From positions 107,570,001 through 107,634,000 of the forward strand of contig NC_043001.1 of assembly GCF_006345805.1 (NCBI RefSeq): a DNA stretch of 64,000 nt, in the 5' to 3' direction. The position numbers were made by a program, and so were the translations under genes. Positions 2,796-59,177 of the stretch are shown piece after piece (position 1 is the stretch's first letter; every line of letters begins with the position of its first letter). The stretch comes from Octopus sinensis (taxonomy: Eukaryota). The notes under the pieces are model-generated. The model made no database searches, was not told the DNA's origin, and saw nothing but the letters and a program-made list of their open reading frames with translations.

Positions 2796-3588
2796 TACTC
2801 TAGACACAAGGCCCGAAATTTGGGGGAAGGGAGGCAGTCGATTTGAACGACCCCAGTATGCAACTGGTACTTAATTTATCGACCTTGAAATGATGAAAGG
2901 AAAAGTCGCCCTCAGCGGAATTTGAACTCAGAACGTAAAGACATACGAAATACTGCTAAGCATTTCGCTCGGCGTGCTAACGTTTCTTATTTCCTTATTG
3001 CCCACAAGGGGCTAAACGCAGAGGGGACAAGCAAGGACAGACAAACGGATTAAGTCGATTACATCGACCCCAATGCGTAACTGGTACTTATTTAATCGAC
3101 CCCGAAATGATGAAAGGCAAAGTCGACCTCGGCGGAATTTGAACTCAGAATGTAACGGCAAACGAAATACCTATTTCTTTACTGCCCACAAGGGGCTATA
3201 CACAGAGGGGACAAACAAGGAAAGACAAACGGATTAAGTCGATTACATCGACCCCAGTGCGTAACTGCTACTTCTTTAATTGACCCCAAAAGGATGAAAG
3301 GCAAACTCGACCTCGGCGAAATTTGAACTCAGAACGTAACGACAGACGAAATACCTATTTCTTTATTACCCACAAGGGGCTAAACACAGAGGGGACAAAC
3401 AAGGACAGACATAGGTATTAAGTCGATTACATCGACCCCAGTGCGTAACTGGTACTTAATTTATCGACCCCGAAAGGATGAAAGGCAAAGTCGACCTCGG
3501 CGGAATTTGAACTCACAACGTAACGACAGACGAAATACCGCTAAGCATTTCGTCTGGCGTGCAAACGTTTCTGCCAGCTCGCCGCCCT
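2796..3588 (-). mobile_element. Head-to-tail array of four family A SINE units (three A2-tail, one A1-tail)
   Basis: Units at 2796-2987, 2988-3171, 3172-3355 and 3356-3588; whole block flanked by a ~20-bp direct repeat ACACATC(G/A)AATATTAATTTC (2776-2795, 3593-3612). Confidence 0.9.
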
Positions 3589-4560: not shown

Positions 4561-6039
4561 ACCTGTCCCACAGTACTTTAAGATTGAGTATTTCAATATT
4601 CATAAACTATAAGTTTCTTGGCACAACCGCTTACTTAGCGACCACAGGTAACTATATATCCGATATAATTTAGTTGTGGAGAAGATTCCCATCTAGGACC
4701 CACTTGTTTTTCCCATAGCTTGGATTTATGAGGCAGTTGTGTTGTTAAGAAAAGACAGAGCTATCAAGATGAAACTAATCATTTAAAACTCTGGTGGCAG
4801 GTCGGTTATCATGAACAGGAATAGCAGTCTATGCTGTGTATTGAAACTGGTGACGGTCCATGCTTCAATGGCGGGAGGGCGATCATATGTCGTAAGTATG
4901 GACTCACATAGACCTGCTAAATAAGTAACAAGGAGAGATATCACCGTTGTTTGTGCCTTTAGTGTTCAAACTAGTTGGGTTACTCAGGCTAATAGGTCAG
5001 GTATTATGGTAAAAGAAATTTGCATAAGCGCAGAAATGACCGTGTGGTAAGAACCTTGCTTCCCAACTACATGGTTTCGGATTCAGTCCCACTGCATGGA
5101 ACCTTGTGCAGGTGTCTTCTACCATAGCCTCGGGCCGGCAAAAGAATTTGATAAGCTCAGAAAATATAGACATTTACTAATCGAAATCGAAAAGGTAGGA
5201 GCTAATCAATCACATTGATGTAGTTTTCGGCTGGTACTTACTTTATTGACCCCGAAAATATGAAGGGCAAAATCGATTGATTTAAAGCACTGAGTACTGA
5301 CCTTAGTCACTACTTCAAGCCATGACAAGCATTCCTAACACAAATCCTAATTTCAGCTAGACATCATGGTATGGGAAACTGTCCAGAATTTACAATTGCA
5401 GTCGTATAATCTGTGAAATTGTTATTTAAACTTGACACCTTAAAGTAATTGGCAAAGAAAGTGTAATTTACTTTGGCGAGAATAAAAAGCAATATGCTGG
5501 CCGGAAAGGATGTGACATGCTGTTTTGGTGGGTATATCATAAACCTCAGGTAGACAAGCTGCTTATGAAAAGAACACCAGGAGTCTGTCTACAAAATATT
5601 GAAAGAACTTGTATATAAATAGAATATTTAATATATTCTCATCCAGATTTTCTTCATAAATTAATTTGCAATTGTTTCAATATCTTCTGTTATATCATAT
5701 CCGTCATCAAATTATTTTCTGTTGAGAATATTACCAAATAACTTATTACTCAGGCAAGTGCATTTAGCATTTAGAAGAATGGTTTGTATTAATTTCTTAC
5801 TTCGATATATCTACATATTTTTTCTTTGGCTAATGCAAACACACCCACACAAACGCATATGCAAGCATTCACGCGACTGTACACACACGACTACTCACAC
5901 AAGCACGCGCAAACATACACGCACGCAGAACTCTTTTTACTCTCACCCTTACGTTCTCTTCTAAGAAAACACACATACAGCATGCATATACAAAGGCGAA
6001 GATCAGTCCTGGGACAGACTCAGAGTAAAACTTGAACAG

Positions 6040-6200
6040 AGAGGAGAAGTCATTGAAGAGATCGCAAATAGGACTTTGACTAACAATCAACCGATTCATT
6101 GCTTAAGCTGCACATTAAACAAACGAAACGATCGATTAGTTAGTTGGTTGAATATTTAGCTAATTGCCTGACAATAAAGAAGTGCGTGCGTTGTTATTAT
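6040..6200 (+). repeat. Unclassified old dispersed repeat, second copy at ~34163-34350
   Basis: Colinear blocks GACTTTGAC.AACAA, ATTAGTTAGTTGGTT.AATATT and ACAATAAAGAAGTG occur in both copies. Confidence 0.7.
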
Positions 6201-6683
6201 TGGCATGATGACCCTCCTAAAGTTTGCTGCAAATCACGAATTCACATCAAGTATCTTATAAACCAAATACAAAAACGAACTTATTATTATGTTATTCTCT
6301 GTCTGGTTAATTAATTTCCAAGCTTTTCTCTTCTGTTTGTTTGAAGTTGGTATACTTATTATATTTCCGTTTCTGTATTTAATACTGTTATTTATGAATG
6401 TCCTTCTCTTCAAGGTCGACTTGGTACATTTTTACCAAACCACATTTCATACTAATTAACTTAACGAATTCGTGTACCTTATTTGAGTGCCGTCAGTTGT
6501 TTCTCATCTCATTTGTTTGTCATCTCCGTTGTTTGTCATCTCAGTATACTGCTTTAAGAAATCCATATACAGGAGATGTTGTTTCATGTTGTTTCATAAA
6601 ACTTCTAGGCACATGCAGTCTGGTTAAGCATGTTTCGAATTTCAAACACCAAATACACAAAAAGACAGAGCAAATCATATTTA

Positions 6684-16368: not shown

Positions 16369-18078
16369 ACGGAGGAATTTGAAAACGTTGCTGGCAAAAA
16401 TGCAGATGTTGAAAATATTTATAAAAAGACAAATATATCCGCGTTCATGTTTATAAATGGAGACATTAACAATGCAAGATAAACAAACGACAGTTATGTA
16501 AACGAATACATCTTTAAACACAGACTAGTATTAAAGATGTTTAGAATATTGGAAATAACGAGCACAACTTTGCTAGTGTTAGCAGTTGGGATCAGATATT
16601 TAAATTCGGACCAGTTCTCCGGAATCAACAGAGAGAATGGATAAAGATGGGATCGTTCTCATTAGTTGATGATTTTATGGAAGAAAAGTTAAAGAAGAAA
16701 ATAGCATATTAGACATACTTTTGTCTCTCGAACAAGGATATCAGTGTGTGCCTGACCTTCAGACTGAATAAAGAAGCAGAACAGAAGTTTCAATAACCTT
16801 CCCATTAGTGAAGACTTGGCAAGTAGGACTATCGGCTGCTAGATGCACACTTCCCGCGCACACACATATGAAATGAAAGTCCTCGAACTTAAATCGAAAT
16901 CGGTTGATATTTCATGGGAAGTTTCGGAGATTACCGCTTTCTAAGTGAGCATTGGAGAAAAATTAAGTTTTAATGATCTAATGAACTAGCTTTCTTCGTC
17001 TGCACCGATATGTAAATATACAATTGTATAGCATAATGCGTAGCATTCACATTGGGACAGACATGTGAACGTATTTTTTATACACTGGAATTATTATTAA
17101 ATTATGAAGGCTGCGAAACGGCCGTAGTCTTAAGGAAGTTAAGGTATATGTTTGTGTGTTCATAGTATGTGTGTATTTGTGTGTGTGTGTGTGTGTGTGT
17201 GTGTAGAAAGCGGATGGCTTATAAGTTACGGTTGTGTGTTTCCGACAATATGTTCGATGGTTCCATTACTGGTCTGCTTATCGCGTTGTTTCCTTCAATA
17301 AAACACTTTCTTTCGCGATGTTTCAATATTGTGGGGGGAATCTGAAAACCAGCTTTATATTGGTGCAGTTTTCGATTTCCTTGGTACACAACGATCGAAG
17401 AAAATCAATACCCAGGAAAGAAAAAAAGTGTAAAGGAATTGAATGCGAAATTATGTATGTAACACATTGTGGAGACCTTCGTTGTGGGAAGTGTAAAATT
17501 GAAATAAGTAAGTAAGGAACACCGAAAAGATGTCTGTATATACATGTGTGTGTACACGTGCGTGTAGAGGTTCTAAAATTAGCTAAAAATATTTTTAAAA
17601 ATTGTTTAAAGACAAACTTGCGAAGTATACGTGGGGTGAGAATAAAGTGGAGGCCAAAATATAAAAACGATAGAATTAGGAAAGTAAAATTCACAACAGA
17701 CTACTCAATAGCAAGCGTAGAATCAAAGTCGTTTGGTGTCAGCTATACAATTGCGGGTGCATTATTTTATTGAATAAATTGGCGCTCGTAAATAACATAT
17801 ATAACAATAACTTAATTACAATTTTTATGCAGTAAATATAATATTTACAAAAGCCAAAAGAAGACAATCATAAATAATAGAGAGTAAATGAAAAATATTC
17901 AAAACAATATTAAAAATAACATGCATTTTACCCATTTATAAATTAGTATTCATAATATTTTATAGAAACAACCATTTAAAATATCTTCTCTGTTAATGAA
18001 CTTGTAAGCCAATGAATGAATTTCTCGTCATAAATAGGATTAACAATTTCCTATGTAATCCTGGAAATTGTAAATACC

Positions 18079-18309
18079 TATTTTTTTATTACCCACAAGG
18101 GGCTAAACATAGAGGGGACAAACAACGACAGACATAGGTATTAAGTCGATTACATCGACCCCAGTGCGTAACTGGTACTTAATTTATCGACCCCGAAAGG
18201 ATGAAAGGTAAAGTCGACCTCGGCGGAATTTGAATTCACAACGTAACGGCAGACGAATACGGCTACGCATTTCGCCCGGCGCGCTAACGTTTCTGCCAGC
18301 TCGCCGCCT
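18079..18309 (-). mobile_element. Full-length solo family A SINE (A2 tail)
   Basis: Complete head to tail; TSD TTGTAAATACC (18068-18078) / TTGTAAAATACC (18311-18322). Confidence 0.92.
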
Positions 18310-19067
18310 TTTGTAAAATACCGATGTTCTGTTAGATGTTGAGGACATTGCAGTATTAGATTGTGTAGGCGGTTAACTATGCACTTACAAGACGGAGCCG
18401 TTGCTACGCATTACATCAAAACACAAAAATTCTGTGATTTGTTGATATTATTTTACTGTATCCTGTGAAGCATCAAGAGGGGGGAGGTGGAGGAGGAGGA
18501 CGACGACGAGAAGAAGATGATGATGAGAAGATATTTAATTAGAGCATATGTTAACCTCGTGAAGGGGTGATTGCATCCAAGGAAATACTGGTTCAATACC
18601 TAGTATTTTGGAGAAATGAAATTCCCTTAAAACAAAAGGCATATATTAAGCATATAGTTTATATCCAGTTAAATGAAGAAAAGAAAATGGAGATAAGGAA
18701 GTTAATAATTGTTTATCATTAACGAATTAGTCACATTTGCTTCTTACAACCGTTTCAACTAATACTCAATGATTTAATTACAAATTTGTACGTTAAATTT
18801 ATATTTATATGACATGAGTATAAATTTAGCAAAGAAAAAAACAAAGATGTTATATGCAGGCCTATTAATTCATTTTAGCAGACTAAATGTTATGCATACA
18901 TGCAAGCATGTATGCATGTATGTATGTATGTATGTATTATGTATGTATGTATTATGTATGAATTATGTATTTATTATGTATGTGTTATGTATGTATGTAT
19001 GTATGTATGTATTATGTATGTATGTATGTATGTATTTATGTATGCATGTATGTATGAATGTAAACTG

Positions 19068-32868: not shown

Positions 32869-34358
32869 AAATTTTAGAAAAAAATTTTAGAGATGTGGAA
32901 ATTTTACCGGTGTGTGTGTGTTAATTTATAAGGCACTAAAAGAGAATGACTCTCCCCAGACACAACAGAATATGCTTCAACACACGAACTCATATAAAGA
33001 ATCTTGCAAACCAAATCCCAAAACGAAATACACACACACACAGACATATATATATATATAATAAATGAGTGTGCAATGAATTACCACCGGATGGGTACTC
33101 GGAAAGATTCAAAGCTATTGTAATCCAACTTCCTTATCAGAGTACCAATAATTCCACGGAACAATAGTTGTTATCCAGAAAATCTGTAAAGCTGAAGCGT
33201 GAAATATAATGACAGAAAGTACACAAAAGCATAGTATTGCCATCGTATTTTTATAATATTTTCACAAGATATTATATTAACATAACCTACTTAGAAAACC
33301 GTGGTAATCGAATCATGTTCGCATGTGCACTGCTTGCTAAGGATAGCAAATAACATTGGATTAAATTACTATTTGCTTCCTAAGATCTGGTGTTTCAAAT
33401 AATTATGCAATCGTCTACGTAATAGTTACTGTACCCTAGTGATTTCCGACGGTTTAATTAGTGATTAATTAATTCTCTTGTTTTATTGCTCTCATTATAC
33501 TCTCTGTAAATCATTAAAACGTATATAATACCAAAAGAAAATTGGAGGACAAGTCAAGTGTACTTCTTGCTTGGGAGATGAATAGACATGGATGTATACC
33601 GAATTCTAAGCAATGGTTAACTGTTATCCTATATTATTCGAAATAGCAACTTTTTAACATATATATATATGTATAGATGTGTGTATGTATATGTATGAGT
33701 GTGTTTGTGTGCGTGTATGCGTAGTTGTTTGTGTTTGTGTGTATGTGTGTGCGTGTATGTGCATGTGTATGGTTCAAACATATACAAAGTATATACAAAA
33801 ATGGAGAAAGGTGAAAGAAAAACAGAGTGTGTTTGACGGTAAAAAAAAATGAAACAACTTCAACCTCTTGAATCTACGTTAATCTACAGAAAAAAATGTT
33901 GAGAGAAAGCAGATGAGGAGATAAAAATGGAGCGCAAAAAAGACGTGTGTGAATTAGCGATGCTAAGAATAATATCTTCTTCACCATTAATATTATTTAC
34001 CAGCATCACCATAAACAGCAAGAGTAAGAACAACAAACATTACAACAACGGTGACCCATCACGTAATCCTCTGCGAGCCATGTTTGTATCATGTGATACA
34101 CTGTTTTGAAAATTAAGAAATTTTTATGTATGTGTGTTTGGTTTGCAGGATTTCAGATGTGAAGGAGAAGAGGAAAGTCAATGAGAAGGGCGCGAATAAC
34201 GACAAAAAGACTTTGACGAACAAACAGTCGATTGACTGTTTAACCAAAACATGAAACAAATAGTCCATTAGTTAGTTGGTTAAATATTCAATAAATTAAC
34301 TAACAATAAAGAAGTGATATTGAAACACGGCGTGTGTAATTATTAATGGCGTAATGAA

Positions 34359-34820
34359 GGCGGTGATCTGGCAGAATCGTTAGCACGCCGGGTGAAATGT
34401 TTAGAGGTATTTCGTCCGTGTCTACGTTCTGAGTTCAAATTCCGACGAGGTTGACTTTGCCGTTCATCCTTTCGAGGTCGATTAAATAAGTACCAATTAA
34501 GCACTAGAGTCGATGTAATCGACTCAATCCCTTTGTCTGTCCTTGTTTATCCCGTCTATGTTTAGCACTCTGTGGGCAATAAAGAAATAAATAATGTAAC
34601 ACTAGAAAGGCGGCCATCTGGCAGAAACGTTAGCACACCGGGCGAAATGCTTAGAGGTATTTCGTCCGTGTCTACGTTCTGAGATGAATTTCCGCCTAGA
34701 TCGACTTTGCTGTTCATCCTTTCGGAATCGATTAAATAAGTACTAGTTACGCACTGTGGTCGATGTAATCGACTTAAACCCTTTTTCCAAGTTGCTCTTG
34801 TGGATGAAATTTGAAATGAT
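34359..34820 (+). mobile_element. Two adjacent family A SINEs (first with A2 tail, second with degenerate A1-like tail)
   Basis: Heads at 34359 and 34609; both share the variant AGAGGTATTTCGTCCGTGTCTACG. Confidence 0.88.
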
Positions 34821-35415: not shown

Positions 35416-35479
35416 TACCTCTGGATATCCTTGTTGCTTATTTTGATTATATATATATATTCATGTGTGTGTGTATAAA

Positions 35480-35589
<110 letters not shown>

Positions 35590-35596
35590 ATATACG

Positions 35597-35635
<39 letters not shown>

Positions 35636-35720
35636 TCATGTGTGTGTGTATAAATATATATATATATATATATATATAAGCAGAGAGAGTTAATAGATCG
35701 GTGGATAGATAGATAGATAT

Positions 35721-36992
35721 GTTTCTTTATTAGCCACACAGGGCTGCACACAGACAGGGCAAATTACAAGGTAGAGCTTTTCTTTTGGGGGTAAAAAAAA
35801 AGTGGGCTTGGTTTTCGATCAAAAGGGATCGTAAAAGGAAAGAAAGAGGACAAAAAAGGGGGGGATAAAAAGGGGGGGATAAAAAAAGGGGGTTGATCAA
35901 TAGGGATCGTTATCACAGAAATGTCAATATGAAGTGTAAAGGGGAGGACAGGTGAGGTTTACCCGTGGAAAGAAAAGCCTACGGAAAAGACCACGGTAAC
36001 CTCGGTCAATGAAGTCACGTTATATTTCTTTTTTTTTTTGCAAATAAACAACTCTCTGTATTAATTTTTACGGTTCATAGAATCATAGTCAAGATGACTT
36101 CGTCATTCATACGTGCCATCCTTGCTACATTCACCCATCTTTTTTTAAAACATTCACTAGACAAAACTTGCCTCTCTACTCTCACTTTCCTTTTCAAGTG
36201 GAGAGATTGACCAGAAAGGAAAGTGTTTGTCTCTAATCCTTTCAGGCGCGTCCACCAGATACATTCTTTCGCCATAGCCACAAGTATGATAAAAATAGCT
36301 CTTCCTTCCCGTTTGAAGGAAGGAGGCGTGACTATATTAACGATAGACTCGGCTGATAAACCGACACGTCCCACACGTGACAGCAGTCGTTCGACATAAG
36401 CCCACAGGTCGGAGATTGTTGGACACTGCACGATTGCGTGCAGAGCGGTTTCATCGCTCTGCCCGCATCTCGGACAGGTCGGCCCCGTGTTTCTCGAGCC
36501 ATGCCTATAGAGCTTATCCCGAACGGGTAGCGCTTCTCGGTAGCACCGCCAGGCCAGGGATCTCTGGAAGTTGTCCATAGGTCCCGGGCCGAAAGTCGTT
36601 TGAAACAGGCGGGTCAGGTATTCGTCGTCGACGCCCAGGTTTGCCCCAAGATCGTCGTCGTACCTCCCCTCCACTAATCCCCTATAGAATGCTTTGGTTG
36701 TGTTGAAGTCACTCAAGGTCGACCCGGGACGGCAGAGTTGCTTGAGAGCAACGCGACACTCGCGGTGCCATTCGCCCTCCCTCGGCCTCTTTTTGATCCA
36801 CGACTGCAGTTCGGTCATGGAGACGAGCTGCGGGAAAGCGTGCCTCACAAACGGCGACCACACCTGTTCACCGTCGTCTACGAAGAGCCTGAGATGTCGC
36901 AGTCTCAGCGCGTGTCTGCGCATCATCAACCATGGCATGCCCAGTCCTCCTTTTAACGGGTATTGACAGCAAATGGATCGCCTGACCATCGG
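35721..36992 (-). mobile_element. 5'-truncated Tx1-clade LINE inserted in a (GATA)n microsatellite
   Basis: ORF 36075-36989 with GGLG motif and C-terminal CCHC zinc knuckle; 3' UTR ending AATAAAGAAAC; GATA repeats on both sides. Confidence 0.88.
36075..36989 (-). CDS. C-terminal ~300 aa of Tx1/L1-type ORF2 (post-RT region and zinc knuckle), 5'-truncated
   Basis: [41 protein letters not shown]; no internal stops. Confidence 0.85.
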
Positions 36993-37067
<75 letters not shown>

Positions 37068-37068
37068 G

Positions 37069-37131
<63 letters not shown>

Positions 37132-38403: not shown

Positions 38404-41400
38404 AAACAAGTAACTCTTTTTTACTGACATACCTGGAAAATATGAAGGCCGACCTAAGCCAGGAGATCCAGCGAGCCATCACCAACCATCTATGCAAATC
38501 ACAAGGACCACTCACAACCAAACAAGTAACTCTTTTTTACTGACCTACCTGGAAAATATGAAGGCCGACCTAAGCCAGGAGATCCAGCGAGCCATCACCA
38601 ACCATCTATGCAAATCACAAGGACCACTCACCCATTACCAACTTCCCTTACCTCGACATTCCTGTTAAATGTACGTGGCATCAACCCATCAATTATAGCC
38701 CAAAAATGGAAGATCCCATATATAGAGTGTTGGCTTGCCGAAATGGCACATTGCTTCCCTTTCTTTATCCTTACCGAGACTCACCTGAACAACACCCATA
38801 TGGACGCAGAGGTGAAAATAAAAGATTTCACCATTGTTCGTGCGGATCGCACAGACCGAAATAAGGGAGGGACAGCCATCTTTATCCATGACTCCTTTTC
38901 ACTTGATGCCAAGGACACATTTTCCAATGGCTACTGTGAATCGGTATCACTATACAACAAAGCCAAGGACATAACCATTGTTGGTCTTTACAGGCCTCCC
39001 CAGGCACCTCTAAAGTACTTTGAAAAGTGCCTTAGCAAAGTCAAGTCCTTCCTTCGGAAGTACCACTCCGGAAACATACTAGTGATGGGTGATTTTAACC
39101 TCCCTCATGTGAACTGGCCCACAAATACTCCGAAGTTAGGCAAGTGCTCTACATCAGATAGGGCAGCAGCAGAACTGCTCTTTAATCTGATGGATGAGTA
39201 TTTCCTGACTCAGCTAGTGCTTCAACCAACGAGACAGAATAAAACGATCTTGGATCTGGTATTGACCAATCACTCTAGCTACGTTCACAGCATTTTAGTC
39301 GAAAAAACTCTCCTCTCAGACCACGACATGATACTCTGCAATCTTAATTCCCGACATATAAAAACCAAACCAGCCAATCCCACTCCATTTGACAACATAA
39401 ACTTCCACAAAGCGTACTGGGGAACAATCAGAAAGGATCTGTCTTCCATCGACTGGTCTTTTACTTTCAATTCCCCTCATATTGAGACCGCGTGGCAGCA
39501 CTTTGAAACCATTGTCACCTATACATGCTCTAAACACGCTCCCAAGAAATCTACTAACACAAACAGAAACCGGCTCCCTAAAAAGAAAATAAACACTCAT
39601 CAGGCGCATCAAAAGACTCAACAAAAAAATCAACCAATTAAAATATTCCCACACACAACATCTACATTCAACAACAATGAAAAGACTAGAGCTGGAAAAA
39701 CTTCATCTGCAGACTAACATGAAAACCTCCATTGAAAATCAAAGAGCTGTGGAGGAACAATGGGTAATCAAAAACATCAAACAGAACCCAAAAGTGTTCT
39801 ATTCTTATGCAAATTAGCATAGAACCACTGTCTCACCCATTGAGCCATTGATTGATGATAACGGCATTCCCCAACACGATGCTAAAGAAATGGCAGAAAT
39901 ACTGCAGAAACAATACTGCTCTGTCTTCAGTGTTCCCACTGATATTGATGTGAGTGAAACGAACGAAGTTGACTCCCAACACAAAATCGCAGACATAACC
40001 TTCACTGCCACCGACATCGTAGCAGCAATAAATGAGGTCAAACATTACTCTGCTGTAGGCCCTGATAGATTTCCCGCTAGTCTCCTGAAGGAATGTAGAT
40101 ATCAACTTGCAGTCCCTCTGACCAACCTCTGGAGAAACTCGTTAGACGCAGGTTATATACCGAAACAGTTTCTATCCCAGTCGGTCATCCCGGTTTTCAA
40201 ACAGGGAAACAGATCCCTCGCAGTCAACTATCGCCCAATCTCACTCACCTCCCACATCATTAAAGTGTTTGAAAGAGTGTTAAGATCAAGGATAGCTGAC
40301 TTCCTGGAGACCCACAAACTCCTAAATTCAAATCAACATGGCTTTCGCTGTGGCAGGGACTGTCTAACACAGCTCTTACACCACATTGAAGATGTACTCA
40401 AAGCCTTGGGAACAGGTTCGAACTCTGACGTCATATATCTTGACTTCAGTAAAGCGTTCGACAGGGTAGACCATAACATCCTACTCTCAAAATTGGCAAA
40501 TGTTGGAATCCGTGGAAAAGTTCTACGCTGGATTCAGTATTTCCTGCCGAATAGAACACAACATGTTGTAGTTGATGGAGTCCACTCAAACCCAGCAAAA
40601 GTCACCAGCGGTGTTCCCTAGTGAACTGTTTTGGGTCCGCTACTCTTCATAATTTACGTAAACGACCTTTCCAGTGTCGTACATCACTGCAAAGTGAAAA
40701 TATTCGCTGATGACACTAAGCTCCAGCAAATCGTCAATGAAGAAGCAGACCGAACTCAACTCCAGTCTGATCTATATGCTGTGAGTCAATGGGCAGGCAG
40801 AAACAAAATGCAACTGAATGAGGGAAAATTTGAGCTGATGCATTTTGGAAGAAATTCCTCACTAAAACAACCATACTGTCTTCCTTCAGGGGAACCGCTC
40901 ACAGCCTCTAACAATATCAGAGACCTGGGTGTAATTGTTGATGACGATCTCAGTTGGAGTGCACACATCAACAAGAAGGTCGATATAGCTCGTAGGATGA
41001 GTTCCTGGATCTTAAGAACTTTCCGGTCCAGAGAACAAGGTGTCATCATACCACTTTTTTCCTCCTTTGTACGGCCACACCTTGAATACTGCTGCCCACT
41101 GTGGTCTCCTCACACAAGACAAAACATCTCCAGAATTGAGTCACCCCAGAGGGCTCTCACTAAACAAATTGAAGGCATGGCTGCTCTCGATTATTGGGAT
41201 CGCCTTAAAGCCTTGAAACTTTACTCCCTCCAGCGTCGCCGTGAGCGGTACATCATTTGTACGATGTGGAGAATATACCGCCAACTTTGCCCAAACGACC
41301 TAAACATTAGCTTCAAGGTTCATCCAAGACTTGGACCACGGCTATACGTCCCCTGCCAAATTCAAGATCACAACATACATGTACACTGCAACATAATTTC

Positions 41401-41670
41401 TTTTCCTCAACAGGCCCTGCCCTATTTAACATTGTCCCGAGGGAGATCAAAGAGGAAAAGGATCCCATCAACTTCAAACAGAGTCTGGATAGATTCATTC
41501 AAAGAATACCAGATAAGCCACCCATAATTGGATACAACTCACCCAACAAGAACTCACTACTTGAACAAAACTTGACTCAAAGCAGGATTCGAATAATCCT
41601 ATCAGGTGGTGCTATTAAGTTAGACATGGCCTGGACCAATCTCTGGTCGAAACATATCTAAGTTTATCTA

Positions 41671-41728: not shown

Positions 41729-41767
41729 TGAATAATTTATAAGTATTAATAAATATATGTAAGAAGT

Positions 41768-41975
41768 CAGCGTGCTGGCATAATCGTTAGCACACCGGGC
41801 TAAAGGCTTAGCGGCGTTTTGTTCATTTTATATTCCGTTTTCAAATTCATCCGAAGTCGTCTTTGCCTTTCGTCCTTTCAGTTGTCGATAAAAAAATTAC
41901 TAGTTGAGTAATGGGCTCGATTCAATCCACGTAGGCCATCCTCGAACCTGCTGGCCTTGTACCAAAACTGGACAC
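41768..41975 (+). mobile_element. Degenerate family A SINE
   Basis: GCTGGCATAATCGTTAGCACACCGG..CTTTGCCTTTCGTCCTTTC..GGCCTTGTACCAAAA. Confidence 0.75.
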
Positions 41976-47715: not shown

Positions 47716-47737
47716 GCGATTGCGATGTGAAATTAAT

Positions 47738-47945
47738 GCAGCGAGCTGGCAGAATCGTTAGAACGCAGGGCGAAATACTTAGCGGTATTTCGTCTGCTGT
47801 TACGTTCTGAGTTCAAATTCCGCCGATGTCGACTTTGCCTTTCATCCTTTCGGGGTCGATAAATAAAGTACCAGTTGCGAACTGGGTTCGATCTAATCGA
47901 CTGCGCCTCTCCCCCCCCAAATCTCTGGCCTAGAGTAGAAAAGAA
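47738..47945 (+). mobile_element. Full-length family A SINE (A1 tail)
   Basis: A box TGGCAGAATCG, B box GAGTTCAAATTCC, core GACTTTGCCTTTCATCCTTTCGGGGTCGATAAA. Confidence 0.92.
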
Positions 47946-48012
47946 TATACAGCCTCACCTTCCTTTTAAAATAGCTTAAACTGTGCTCTAAATGGAAGTG
48001 GTCAAATCCTAT

Positions 48013-54612: not shown

Positions 54613-54892
54613 TCTACTCTAGGTACAAAGCCCGAAATTTTTGGGGAGGGAGCCTGTCGATTAGATCAACCCCAGTACGCAACTGATACTTAATTTATCC
54701 AACCCGAATGGATGAAAGGGCTTAGTCGGCGGAATTTGAACTCAGAACGGAAAGACAGACGAAATACCTATTTCTTTACTACCCACAAGGGGCTAAACAC
54801 AGAGAGGACAAACAAGGACAGACAAACGGATTAAGCCGATTATATCGACCCCGTGGGTAACTGGTACTTATTTAGTCGACTCCGAAAGGATG
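54613..54892 (-). mobile_element. Family A SINE dimer: 5'-truncated A2 joined to A1 at GGTATTTCGTC
   Basis: Junction GACGAAATACC|TATTTCTTTAC at 54768/54769, the same site as in the 2796-3588 array. Confidence 0.88.
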
Positions 54893-54989
54893 TAAATTAC
54901 CCTTACAAAGCGGAAAGATTTGTCAACAACCACCCATGGGACTCGAATCCATATCTCTTGAAGACTCCGGCCAAGTGCTTTGCCATTAA

Positions 54990-58800: not shown

Positions 58801-59177
58801 TTTCTTTACTAGCCACAAAAAAGGGACAAATTTCAATGTGGAGCTTTTCTTTTGGAAAATAGAAAAAAAACAGAAAAAGAAAATTTCGATCAAAAGGGAT
58901 CGTGTATCACAGAAACTATCATAAATGTAAAAAGCAGATTAGGTTTATCCGTGGAAAGAAAAGTCTACGGAAACTACCACGGTAAACTCAGGCAGGGAGG
59001 AAAAAAAACACCAAAGCAAAGTGCTCTCCCCCCCTCTCTCTCTCTCTTTCGTTTTTTGATTTACAGGATCATGCTCAAAGTGGTTTCGTCATTTACGCGT
59101 ACCATCTTTGCTATATTCACCCACCTTTTCTTGAATCTTTCACGAAGCAAAACTTGCCTCTCTATTCTCACCTTCCG
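58801..59177 (-). mobile_element. Older Tx1-clade LINE 3' fragment next to (GA)n
   Basis: Colinear with 35722-36190 (TTTCGATCAAAAGGGATCGT, CCGTGGAAAGAAAAG.CTACGGAAA, CAAAACTTGCCTCTCTA). Confidence 0.88.

What the first reader, a model, noticed from the sequence alone, without database searches (positions are those of the whole stretch)
35721..35772. The A2 SINE tail matches the 3' end of the Tx1-clade LINE in the same window: candidate SINE-LINE pair
Seen on the + strand: Tx1 TTTCTTTATTAGCCACACAGGGCTGCACACAGACAGGGCAAA versus A2 TTTCTTTATTACCCACAAGGGGCTAAACACAGAGGGGACAAA, 34/42 identical by hand count and ungapped, exactly at both 3' termini. Established: SINEs borrow the 3' tail of the LINE that mobilises them, and Tx1-clade APE endonucleases are often sequence-specific (Kibi, Koshi, Keno, Dewa). 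Inference: A2 arose by swapping the A1 tail for a Tx1 tail and inherited target specificity from a sister Tx1 family that cuts at GGTATTT.
Basis: partly seen in the sequence, partly recalled or inferred. Interest (0 to 1): 0.75.

Follow-up and report, generated by a model that had tools for sequence, protein, structure and literature searches.

The report
SINE tail shared with microsatellite-targeting LINE
The end of a broken jumping gene (a LINE) in this window matches the tail of a small, very abundant repeat (a SINE) far better than chance, so the SINE likely borrows this LINE group's copying enzyme; this is a familiar kind of partnership, though the two land at different short DNA motifs.

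Summary
Window 35722-35763 matches the A2 SINE tail at 34 of 42 bases without gaps. No other non-SINE 42-mer in the window exceeds 25 of 42, and 0 of 2000 shuffles reach the 3'-anchored score. Both sequences are true 3' termini.

The LINE is an abundant family with endonuclease, reverse-transcriptase and zf-RVT domains. Its nearest solved relative is human L1 ORF2p. It inserts in one orientation into (TATC)n microsatellites. That fits Tx1, but the clade could not be tested here. A sister family, LINE-B, has a somewhat closer tail (37 of 43), including an identical 14-nt block.

The inferred "sister Tx1 that cuts at GGTATTT" was not found. Four genome-wide pattern searches recovered no LINE with an A2-type tail or junction.

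A2 does have a real target preference. Target-site duplications start with GGTAT (consensus RNY|RRTAT). Of 17,599 exact tails, 60% are followed by TAGGTA and 25% by the SINE's own internal site, which gives 184-bp tandem arrays. The flank motif co-varies with a one-base tail variant.

Verdict: a real, probably unreported SINE-LINE tail pair of a known kind. Which LINE mobilises A2, and how the target is chosen, remain open.

The parts
35722..35771 (-). Last 50 nt of the LINE-A 3'UTR: the tail homologous to the SINE A2 tail (the finding)
   Evidence: 34 of 42 ungapped. Gapped 3'-anchored alignment has z 6.4 with 0 of 2000 shuffles reaching it. The same terminus is seen in 38 of 40 scored genomic copies.
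35722..36074 (-). LINE-A 3'UTR (353 nt)
   Evidence: 1952 candidate copies in the genome; 40 were scored, and the 39 non-self copies are 89-94% identical.
36075..36994 (-). C-terminal remnant of LINE-A ORF2 (stop codon at 36075-36077); the copy is 5'-truncated at 36994
   Evidence: zf-RVT PF13966, E 2.7e-8. Aligns to positions 4877-6175 of a full-length copy at 94%. 35,266 candidate copies; 130 scored at 94-97% aa identity.
36995..37131 (-). (TATC)n microsatellite directly upstream of the truncated LINE: the 5' half of the target
   Evidence: TRF reports (GATA)34.8 at 36993-37131 on the + strand; the sequence was read.
35693..35721 (-). CA followed by about 5 units of (TATC)n directly after the LINE 3' end: the 3' half of the target
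   Evidence: Genome-wide, 4,230 of 5,133 exact LINE-A tails are followed by CATATC.
18079..18310 (-). Solitary full-length A2 SINE, flanked by the target-site duplication GGTATTT(T)ACAA at 18068-18078 and 18311-18322
2988..3586 (-). A2 array: one full copy (3356-3586) plus two headless body units (3172-3354 and 2988-3170), joined at the SINE-internal site GGTATTTCG
2836..2987 (-). A1-type SINE starting at its position 17 (AGAAACG), abutting the last A2 unit, which carries the GGGC tail variant
54769..54896 (-). 5'-truncated A2 unit joined at GGTATTTCG to an A1-type body (54656-54767)
34357..34589 (+). Older A2 copy (84% identical to the 18079 copy), with 3' flank TAAATAATG and no GGTAT
58801..59176 (-). 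Third LINE relative (LINE-C), 5'-truncated. Its tail has an internal deletion and is followed by (CT)n
   Evidence: tblastn gives 72% over ORF2 residues 1117-1152; the sequence was read.

Best explanation
Window 35722-35771 (minus strand) is the last 50 nt of a 5'-truncated copy of an abundant LINE that carries endonuclease, reverse-transcriptase and zf-RVT domains and sits inside a (TATC)n microsatellite. This tail is homologous to the tail of SINE subfamily A2, so A2 is likely reverse-transcribed in trans by an enzyme of this LINE group that recognises the shared tail.

Shown directly:
- The homology, and that both sequences are true 3' termini.
- The LINE's domain content and its (TATC)n target.
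- A sister family, LINE-B, with a closer tail.
- A2's own target motif, RNY|RRTAT, with GGTAT the commonest start of the target-site duplication.
- That the SINE's internal site AGC|GGTATTTCG is hit in about a quarter of copies, giving 184-bp head-to-tail arrays.

Inferred:
- Trans-mobilisation itself.
- That the arrays arise from self-targeted insertion, with the 5' junction made by homology between the new cDNA and the target SINE.
- My preferred but least certain step: the 5-nt motif at the start of the duplication (TATCT for LINE-A and LINE-B, GGTAT or AGAAR for two A2 sublineages) is set by pairing of the RNA's extreme 3' end, or a co-transcribed flank, with the nicked DNA, while the endonuclease contributes the shared upstream half-site (R at -3, Y at -1).
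For: - Tail homology: 34 of 42 ungapped against a window background of 25 or less. z is 6.4 for LINE-A and 7.3 for LINE-B, with 0 of 2000 shuffles reaching either score. LINE-B shares an identical 14-nt block, TTTGTCCCCTCTGT.
- Termini.
- LINE identity: Exo_endo_phos E 1.3e-14, RVT_1 E 1.7e-31, zf-RVT E 1.6e-7 in a 1152-aa ORF2. The best solved match is human L1 ORF2p, E 4e-55.
- (TATC)n target: of 15 differently truncated LINE-A copies, 9 have a clear (TATC)n directly upstream, 3 a short or degenerate one, and 3 none. The 3' flank starts CATATCT in 21 of 29 LINE-A tails and GTTATCT in 30 of 32 LINE-B tails. Genome-wide, 4,230 of 5,133 exact LINE-A tails are followed by CATATC. The window copy is flanked this way on both sides.
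- Abundance of both partners.
- A2 target: in 24 solitary copies with a duplication of 9 nt or more, -3 is R in 22 (p 1.6e-5), -1 is C in 11 (p 0.004) and C or T in 19, +3 is T in 20, +4 is A in 22. Genome-wide, 10,570 of 17,599 exact tails are followed by TAGGTA and 4,414 by TAGGTATTTCG.
- (TATC)n itself reads A at -3 and C at -1, so it fits the same upstream half-site.
- Lineage-specific motif: the GGGT tail variant goes with a GGTA flank 69 times and an AGAA flank once. The GGGC variant goes with AGAA 10 times and GGTA twice. Fisher p is 3e-10.
Against: - LINE-A and LINE-B land in (TATC)n, while A2 lands at GGTAT. Position +4 is C in the LINE target but C in 0 of 24 A2 sites, and none of the eight commonest flank classes among 157 A2 tails starts with TATC. 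The simplest test of partnership, a shared target, is therefore not met.
- The A2 tail still differs from the nearest LINE tail at about 6 of 43 positions.
- No LINE with an A2-identical tail exists at appreciable copy number.
- No significant or conserved RNA structure was found in the tails. RNAalifold predicts no pairs, and single-sequence folds are no better than shuffles, with z from -1.1 to +1.0.
- Ages could not be compared fairly. Divergence from the majority is 0.13 for LINE-A, 0.03 for LINE-B and 0.06-0.07 for A2, all from biased samples.
- Adjacent array units are somewhat more alike than random pairs (0.892 against 0.856, p 1e-9), so some tandem duplication is not excluded.
Confidence: 0.62

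Rival explanations
1. One reading: A2 is mobilised by a separate sister LINE of the same group, whose endonuclease itself cuts at GGTAT. LINE-A and LINE-B would be only cousins of that partner.
For: The A2 target differs from the LINE-A and LINE-B target at +4. The group does contain families with different flanks: (TATC)n for A and B, and (CT)n for the single LINE-C copy. The -3 R and -1 Y preference lies outside the duplication, which points to protein recognition. Two A2 sublineages with different motifs could each have their own LINE.
Against: Four genome-wide pattern searches found no such LINE. The LINE 3'UTR motif combined with the A2 hairpin gave 0 hits. The same motif combined with the GAAATAGGTA junction gave 0 hits. 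The A2 tail with a non-SINE prefix gave 28 and 49 hits, all readable as SINE indel or deletion variants; six were inspected and the rest judged by their prefix. Of 61 sampled LINE-A and LINE-B tails, none is followed by TAGGTA. A low-copy, decayed or differently built 3'UTR would have escaped these patterns.
Confidence: 0.3
2. The shared tail is only a historical relic. A2 once took its tail from this LINE group but is, or was, amplified by an unrelated LINE that does not read that tail.
For: The targets differ. No conserved tail structure was detected. Other LINE families lie in the same window, for example 38530-41527 on the + strand.
Against: The last 25 nt of the A2 tail are strongly kept: 17,599 exact 28-mers. 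The end GAAA plus 2 nt is the same in the SINE and in both LINE families. A2 and the LINEs share the -3 R and -1 Y half-site.
Confidence: 0.07
3. For the arrays only: the 184-bp head-to-tail A2 units arose mainly by tandem duplication or unequal exchange, not by repeated insertion into the SINE's own GGTATTTCG site.
For: Adjacent units are more alike than random pairs (0.892 against 0.856; Mann-Whitney p 1e-9), and runs reach 10 units.
Against: Median identity of adjacent units is only 0.91. The junction falls exactly at a site that fits the motif seen at non-SINE targets, AGC|GGTAT. Mixed joints exist: an A2 tail on an A1 body at 54769, and a GGGC-variant tail on AGAAACG at SINE position 17.
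Confidence: 0.25
4. The 34 of 42 match is chance similarity between two A/T- and G-rich ends.
For: None beyond the short length.
Against: The window background maximum is 25 of 42. 0 of 2000 shuffles reach the score. The match sits at the termini of both families, and the match to LINE-B is better still.
Confidence: 0.01

Closest known systems
SINEU SINEs and Tx1-Mar LINEs of crocodilians (Kojima 2015, PMC4494074; passages read)
   Same: A SINE is proposed to be mobilised by target-specific L1/Tx1-type LINEs. Insertions pile up in and beside other copies of the same elements.
   Different: There the link rests on a shared target (a Mariner transposon) and shared 5' heads. Here it rests on a shared 3' tail, while the target motifs differ ((TATC)n against GGTAT).
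Kibi, Koshi and crocodilian Tx1 families that insert into (TC)n, (TTC)n, (TTCC)n or (TTTC)n microsatellites (as summarised in PMC4494074)
   Same: An APE-type LINE that inserts in one orientation into a specific microsatellite.
   Different: The target here is (TATC)n and the host is not a vertebrate. Clade membership was not tested. I found no paper naming a (TATC)n- or (GATA)n-specific Tx1 (search).
Stringent SINE-LINE pairs with a common 3' tail, such as eel UnaSINE1 with UnaL2 (Kajikawa and Okada 2002; cited in PMC4494074, details recalled)
   Same: About 50 nt of terminal homology between a SINE and the 3'UTR end of a LINE.
   Different: In the eel pair a stem-loop and terminal repeats were shown by experiment to be required. 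Here no significant structure was detected and nothing has been assayed.
Octopus SINEs OK, OR1 and OR2 (Ohshima and Okada 1994; seen only as citations)
   Same: Possibly the same or related SINEs. This is my recollection only; the organism of this window was not established.
   Different: No partner LINE is mentioned in the passages I read. The 1994 paper itself was not available to me.

Membership tests
SINE-LINE partner pair with a shared 3' tail | Significant sequence similarity confined to the 3' termini of both elements | tested here: met
   34 of 42 ungapped against a background of 25 or less. z is 6.4 and 7.3, with 0 of 2000 shuffles reaching the scores. Termini are defined by multi-copy comparison.
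SINE-LINE partner pair with a shared 3' tail | Both elements present in many copies in the same genome | tested here: met
   35,266 LINE-A ORF2 candidates. 5,133 exact LINE-A tails. 2,014 LINE-B 3'UTR candidates. 17,599 exact A2 tails.
SINE-LINE partner pair with a shared 3' tail | Overlapping periods of activity | tested here: inconclusive
   Divergence from the majority is 0.13 for LINE-A, 0.03 for LINE-B and 0.06-0.07 for A2, but the samples were chosen as best hits or exact matches.
SINE-LINE partner pair with a shared 3' tail | Same target-site signature (expected when the LINE is target-specific) | tested here: not met
   LINE-A and LINE-B duplications start with TATCT inside (TATC)n. 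A2 duplications start with GGTAT, and +4 is never C in 24 sites. Only the upstream half-site (-3 R, -1 Y) is shared.
SINE-LINE partner pair with a shared 3' tail | Mobilisation of the SINE by the LINE's proteins | not testable with these tools
   Needs a retrotransposition assay.
Tx1 clade of non-LTR retrotransposons | N-terminal APE endonuclease, RT and a C-terminal Cys/His motif in ORF2 | tested here: met
   Exo_endo_phos, RVT_1 and zf-RVT in a 1152-aa ORF2. This architecture is shared with the L1 clade, so it does not separate the two.
Tx1 clade of non-LTR retrotransposons | RT domain groups with Tx1 reference elements in a phylogeny (for example RTclass1) | not testable with these tools
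   No Tx1 reference sequences could be obtained. Protein searches returned unnamed hits only. The nearest solved protein is human L1 ORF2p.
Tx1 clade of non-LTR retrotransposons | Target-sequence-specific insertion (common in the clade, not universal) | tested here: met
   (TATC)n lies on both sides of differently truncated copies, in a fixed orientation.
tRNA-derived SINE | Head related to a tRNA with internal pol III promoter boxes | tested here: inconclusive
   ARAGORN and Rfam find nothing in 17900-18500. A box-B-like GAGTTCAAATTCC was seen by eye only.
tRNA-derived SINE | Short, non-coding, high copy number, flanked by target-site duplications | tested here: met
   About 232 nt; 17,599 exact tails; duplications of 9-18 nt in 24 solitary copies.

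The most novel reading that the evidence does not exclude
In this LINE group and its SINEs, the landing site is programmed by the last few nucleotides of the RNA rather than by the endonuclease alone. Each lineage carries its own heritable 5-nt address: TATCT for LINE-A and LINE-B, GGTAT and AGAAR for two A2 sublineages that differ by one tail base. That address pairs with the nicked DNA, while the enzyme supplies only a loose RNY half-site. Because the SINE contains its own address, it inserts into itself and builds tandem arrays. This would be a natural, RNA-addressed L1/Tx1-type retrotransposon system.
Probability: 0.3. Interest if true: 0.65.

Novelty: new member of a known kind. Interest (0 to 1): 0.42.

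Why it matters
SINEs make up a large share of this genome, and knowing which LINE group feeds them is the first step to explaining how they expanded. The pair found here is an ordinary kind of partnership, a shared 3' tail. Two things add to it: a LINE that targets (TATC)n microsatellites, and a SINE whose insertion sites carry a short, lineage-specific motif that also lies inside the SINE itself, which explains its tandem arrays. If that motif is read from the RNA's 3' end, the system would be a simple natural model for how non-LTR retrotransposons choose their sites, and that is directly testable with tail and pentamer mutants. If not, a still-unidentified LINE with GGTAT specificity remains to be found.

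Tried and rejected
- Search for a LINE with an A2-type tail. Pattern of LINE 3'UTR motif plus A2 hairpin: 0 hits. LINE 3'UTR motif plus GAAATAGGTA junction: 0 hits. A2 tail preceded by six non-SINE bases: 28 hits and 49 hits. All are readable as SINE variants with 1-nt indels or internal deletions; six were inspected and the rest judged from the matched prefix.
- Naming the LINE clade. The search for homologous proteins gave 10 hits, none with a clade name. The protein atlas gave only 'hypothetical protein' clusters carrying RVT_1, Exo_endo_phos and zf-RVT. ORF1 candidates have no Pfam match.
- Conserved tail hairpin. RNAalifold on six tails predicts no pairs. Single folds give a similar small hairpin in LINE-A, LINE-B and A2, but it is no more stable than in shuffles.
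- tRNA origin of the SINE head. ARAGORN and Rfam found nothing.
- Earlier notes of this scan held nothing.
- Literature searches and passages read in PMC13282606, PMC8967140, PMC4494074, PMC4758252, PMC4824008, PMC9115989 and PMC3531059. L1-Tx1 LINEs and SINEs are reported in octopus genomes, but I saw no statement of a SINE-LINE pair, of (TATC)n targeting, or of SINE arrays. Supplements and Repbase/Dfam were not seen and may hold such entries.
- The LINE-C tail alignment used an end coordinate 5 nt off, so its score is not used.
- Chance similarity is rejected.

Full report
**What is at the coordinates**

On the minus strand it is the end of a LINE fragment.
- An open frame at 36075-36989 carries a zf-RVT domain (E 2.7e-8).
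- It is followed by a 353-nt 3'UTR that ends at 35722.
- The copy is 5'-truncated at 36994, and aligns to positions 4877-6175 of a full-length copy at 94%.

The quoted A2 42-mer is at 3358-3399. It recurs with 2-3 mismatches at 3174, 18081 and 54771. All of these are SINE copies whose sense strand is the minus strand.

**Is the match more than chance?**

- Ungapped identity is 34 of 42.
- Scanning every 42-mer on both strands of the window, the only scores above 25 are seven SINE copies and this LINE end.
- With one 3-nt gap the similarity covers about 50 nt (35722-35771).
- A 3'-anchored alignment of the last 55 nt scores 27, against -1.1 ± 4.4 (max 16) for 2000 dinucleotide shuffles. None reaches it.
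- Both are real termini. Of 40 scored genomic copies of the 3'UTR, 38 align up to base 35722. A2 copies end at the same GAAA plus two bases.

**What the LINE is**

- The family, here called LINE-A, is very abundant. The C-terminal 304 aa have 35,266 candidate matches in the 2.72-Gb genome. The 130 scored are 94-97% identical, and five lie in an open frame of 1152 aa.
- One such copy (L023) has an ORF2 with Exo_endo_phos (E 1.3e-14), RVT_1 (E 1.7e-31) and zf-RVT (E 1.6e-7). Upstream ORF1 candidates have no Pfam match.
- The best solved relative is human L1 ORF2p, E 4e-55 over residues 5-855.
- This places it in the L1/Tx1 group. I could not test 'Tx1' as such, because the protein searches returned only unnamed relatives and no Tx1 reference set is available here.
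- Papers on octopus repeats list 'L1-Tx1' among recently active LINEs (PMC13282606 and PMC8967140; passages). I did not establish the organism of this window, so I use this only as context.

**The LINE is microsatellite-specific**

- Genome-wide, 4,230 of 5,133 exact LINE-A tails are followed by CATATC.
- In my sample, 21 of 29 LINE-A tails are followed by CATATCT.
- Of 15 copies truncated at different points, 9 have a clear (TATC)n directly upstream of the 5' junction as well, 3 a short or degenerate one, and 3 none.
- The window copy has (TATC)35 upstream (36995-37131) and about 5 units downstream.
- Full-length copies in L023 and L024 are preceded by another LINE tail and a few TATC units.

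The element therefore ends GAAA+CA and inserts, in one orientation, into (TATC)n.

**Sister families**

- LINE-B has 2,014 3'UTR candidates. The 39 scored non-self copies are 93-96% identical to the query copy. Its ORF2 is about 80-86% identical to LINE-A.
- LINE-B ends GAAA+GT followed by (TATC)n in 30 of 32 tails.
- Its tail is closer to A2: an identical 14-nt block, 37 of 43 columns over the last 42 nt, score 31, z 7.3.
- A single old relative in the window, LINE-C (58801-59176, minus strand), is followed by (CT)n.

A closer LINE tail exists, and the similarity is significant.

**The SINE and its landing sites**

A1 and A2 share positions 1-167 and differ only in the tail, which fits a tail exchange. 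The exact 28-nt A2 tail occurs 17,599 times, and 0 times for the reversed control.

Target-site duplications:
- In a free-offset search over 32 sources (30 loci, L005 and the window), 17 copies gave a duplication call. In 9 of them it starts exactly 2 nt after GAAA.
- With that register fixed, 24 solitary copies have duplications of 9-18 nt.
- Counts in those 24: -3 is R in 22 (p 1.6e-5). -1 is C in 11 (p 0.004) and C or T in 19. +1 is R in 20, +2 is R in 21, +3 is T in 20, +4 is A in 22, and +5 is T in 14.
- The duplication most often begins GGTAT, as in the window copy at 18079-18310, which is flanked by GGTATTT(T)ACAA.

Genome-wide, 10,570 of the 17,599 tails (60%) are followed by TAGGTA, and 4,414 (25%) by TAGGTATTTCG. 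The latter is the SINE's own sequence from position 52 (…TTAGC|GGTATTTCG…), which fits the full RNY|RRTAT motif. So 'GGTATTT' is really a 5-nt motif plus the SINE's own next bases.

**Arrays**

- In my sample, 69 of 135 A2 tails run straight into a SINE body at position 52.
- Adjacent tails are most often 184 nt apart, and runs reach 10 units.
- The window array at 2988-3586 is one full copy plus two headless units. It ends on an A1-type SINE entered at position 17 (AGAAACG).
- This pattern is what insertion into the SINE's own site predicts, if the 5' junction forms by homology between the new cDNA and the target SINE. That step is inferred.
- Adjacent units are only slightly more alike than random pairs (0.892 against 0.856, p 1e-9; median 0.91). 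Some tandem duplication therefore cannot be excluded.

**Does the LINE in the window mobilise A2?**

The evidence points both ways.
- For: terminal homology of about 50 nt; the same GAAA+NN end; high copy numbers of both; and a shared upstream half-site, since (TATC)n also reads A at -3 and C at -1.
- Against: the downstream motif differs. It is TATCT for the LINEs and GGTAT for A2, and C never appears at +4 in the 24 A2 sites. No LINE with an A2-type tail or junction was found by four genome-wide patterns. No conserved RNA structure was detected. Ages could not be compared on unbiased samples.

One further fact bears on mechanism: the flank motif co-varies with a single tail base. The GGGT variant goes with GGTA 69 times and AGAA once. 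The GGGC variant goes with AGAA 10 times and GGTA twice. Fisher p is 3e-10. Either each sublineage has its own LINE, or the motif travels with the RNA (as its extreme 3' end or a co-transcribed flank) and guides priming by pairing with the nicked DNA. I prefer the second reading, because LINE-A and LINE-B also carry their target repeat at their own 3' ends. It is untested.

**Comparison with what is known**

- SINE-LINE tail sharing is textbook.
- The nearest precedent for a SINE fed by target-specific Tx1-type LINEs is SINEU with Tx1-Mar in crocodilians (PMC4494074; passages).
- Microsatellite-specific Tx1 families are known for (TC)n, (TTC)n, (TTCC)n and (TTTC)n (same paper).
- I found no paper describing a (TATC)n-specific member, a partner LINE for this SINE, or its self-targeted arrays. 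This rests on the searches, and the passages. Repbase/Dfam and the papers' supplements were not seen.

I therefore file it as a new member of a known kind, of moderate interest. The RNA-addressed targeting reading is the boldest one still open.

Noticed in passing
window 38530-41527 (+): A second, unrelated LINE with Exo_endo_phos_2 and RVT_1, split over three frames (38530-39717, 39818-40621, 40625-41527). It is only 26% identical to LINE-A in the RT domain. It is followed by (TA)n and then a diverged SINE-like element at 41764-41921 (73% to A2 positions 1-157).
   Followed up: partly
window 58801-59176 (-): An old, 5'-truncated relative of LINE-A and LINE-B (LINE-C). Its tail has an internal deletion and it is followed by (CT)n instead of (TATC)n. 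This hints that members of this group differ in microsatellite target. Only one copy was seen.
   Followed up: partly
window 47735-47960 (+), 2836-2987 (-); loci L056-L143: A1-type SINE tails (…CCTTGTGCCTAGAGTAGAAA) are also followed by a non-random motif: AGAATA in 5 and GGAATA in 2 of 17 sampled. The end of the A1 tail loosely resembles the A2 and LINE end, so A1 may have its own partner in the same LINE group.
   Followed up: partly
loci L089, L113, L099, L086; window 2988-3031: An A2 sublineage with GGGC instead of GGGT in the tail has flanks starting TA|AGAAR. The SINE head contains such a site at position 17 (GGC|AGAAACG), and that site is used in the window array.
   Followed up: yes
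loci L114-L143: 49 exact genomic copies of an A2 variant with a 14-nt internal deletion between the two TTTGTC direct repeats of the tail (…AATCC[A/C]TTTGTCCCC…).
   Followed up: no
L023 1660-1700; L024 (minus strand, near 6500): Full-length LINE-A copies lie head-to-tail behind another LINE-A 3' end, separated by only about 5 TATC units. The LINE thus also inserts next to itself, presumably because its own tail recreates the target.
   Followed up: partly
window 35440-35680: A compound microsatellite block just beyond the LINE's 3' flank: (TA)n, (CA)n and (TATC)14 at 35480-35593. This (TATC)14 lies on the + strand, so it is oriented opposite to the LINE's target repeat.
   Followed up: no
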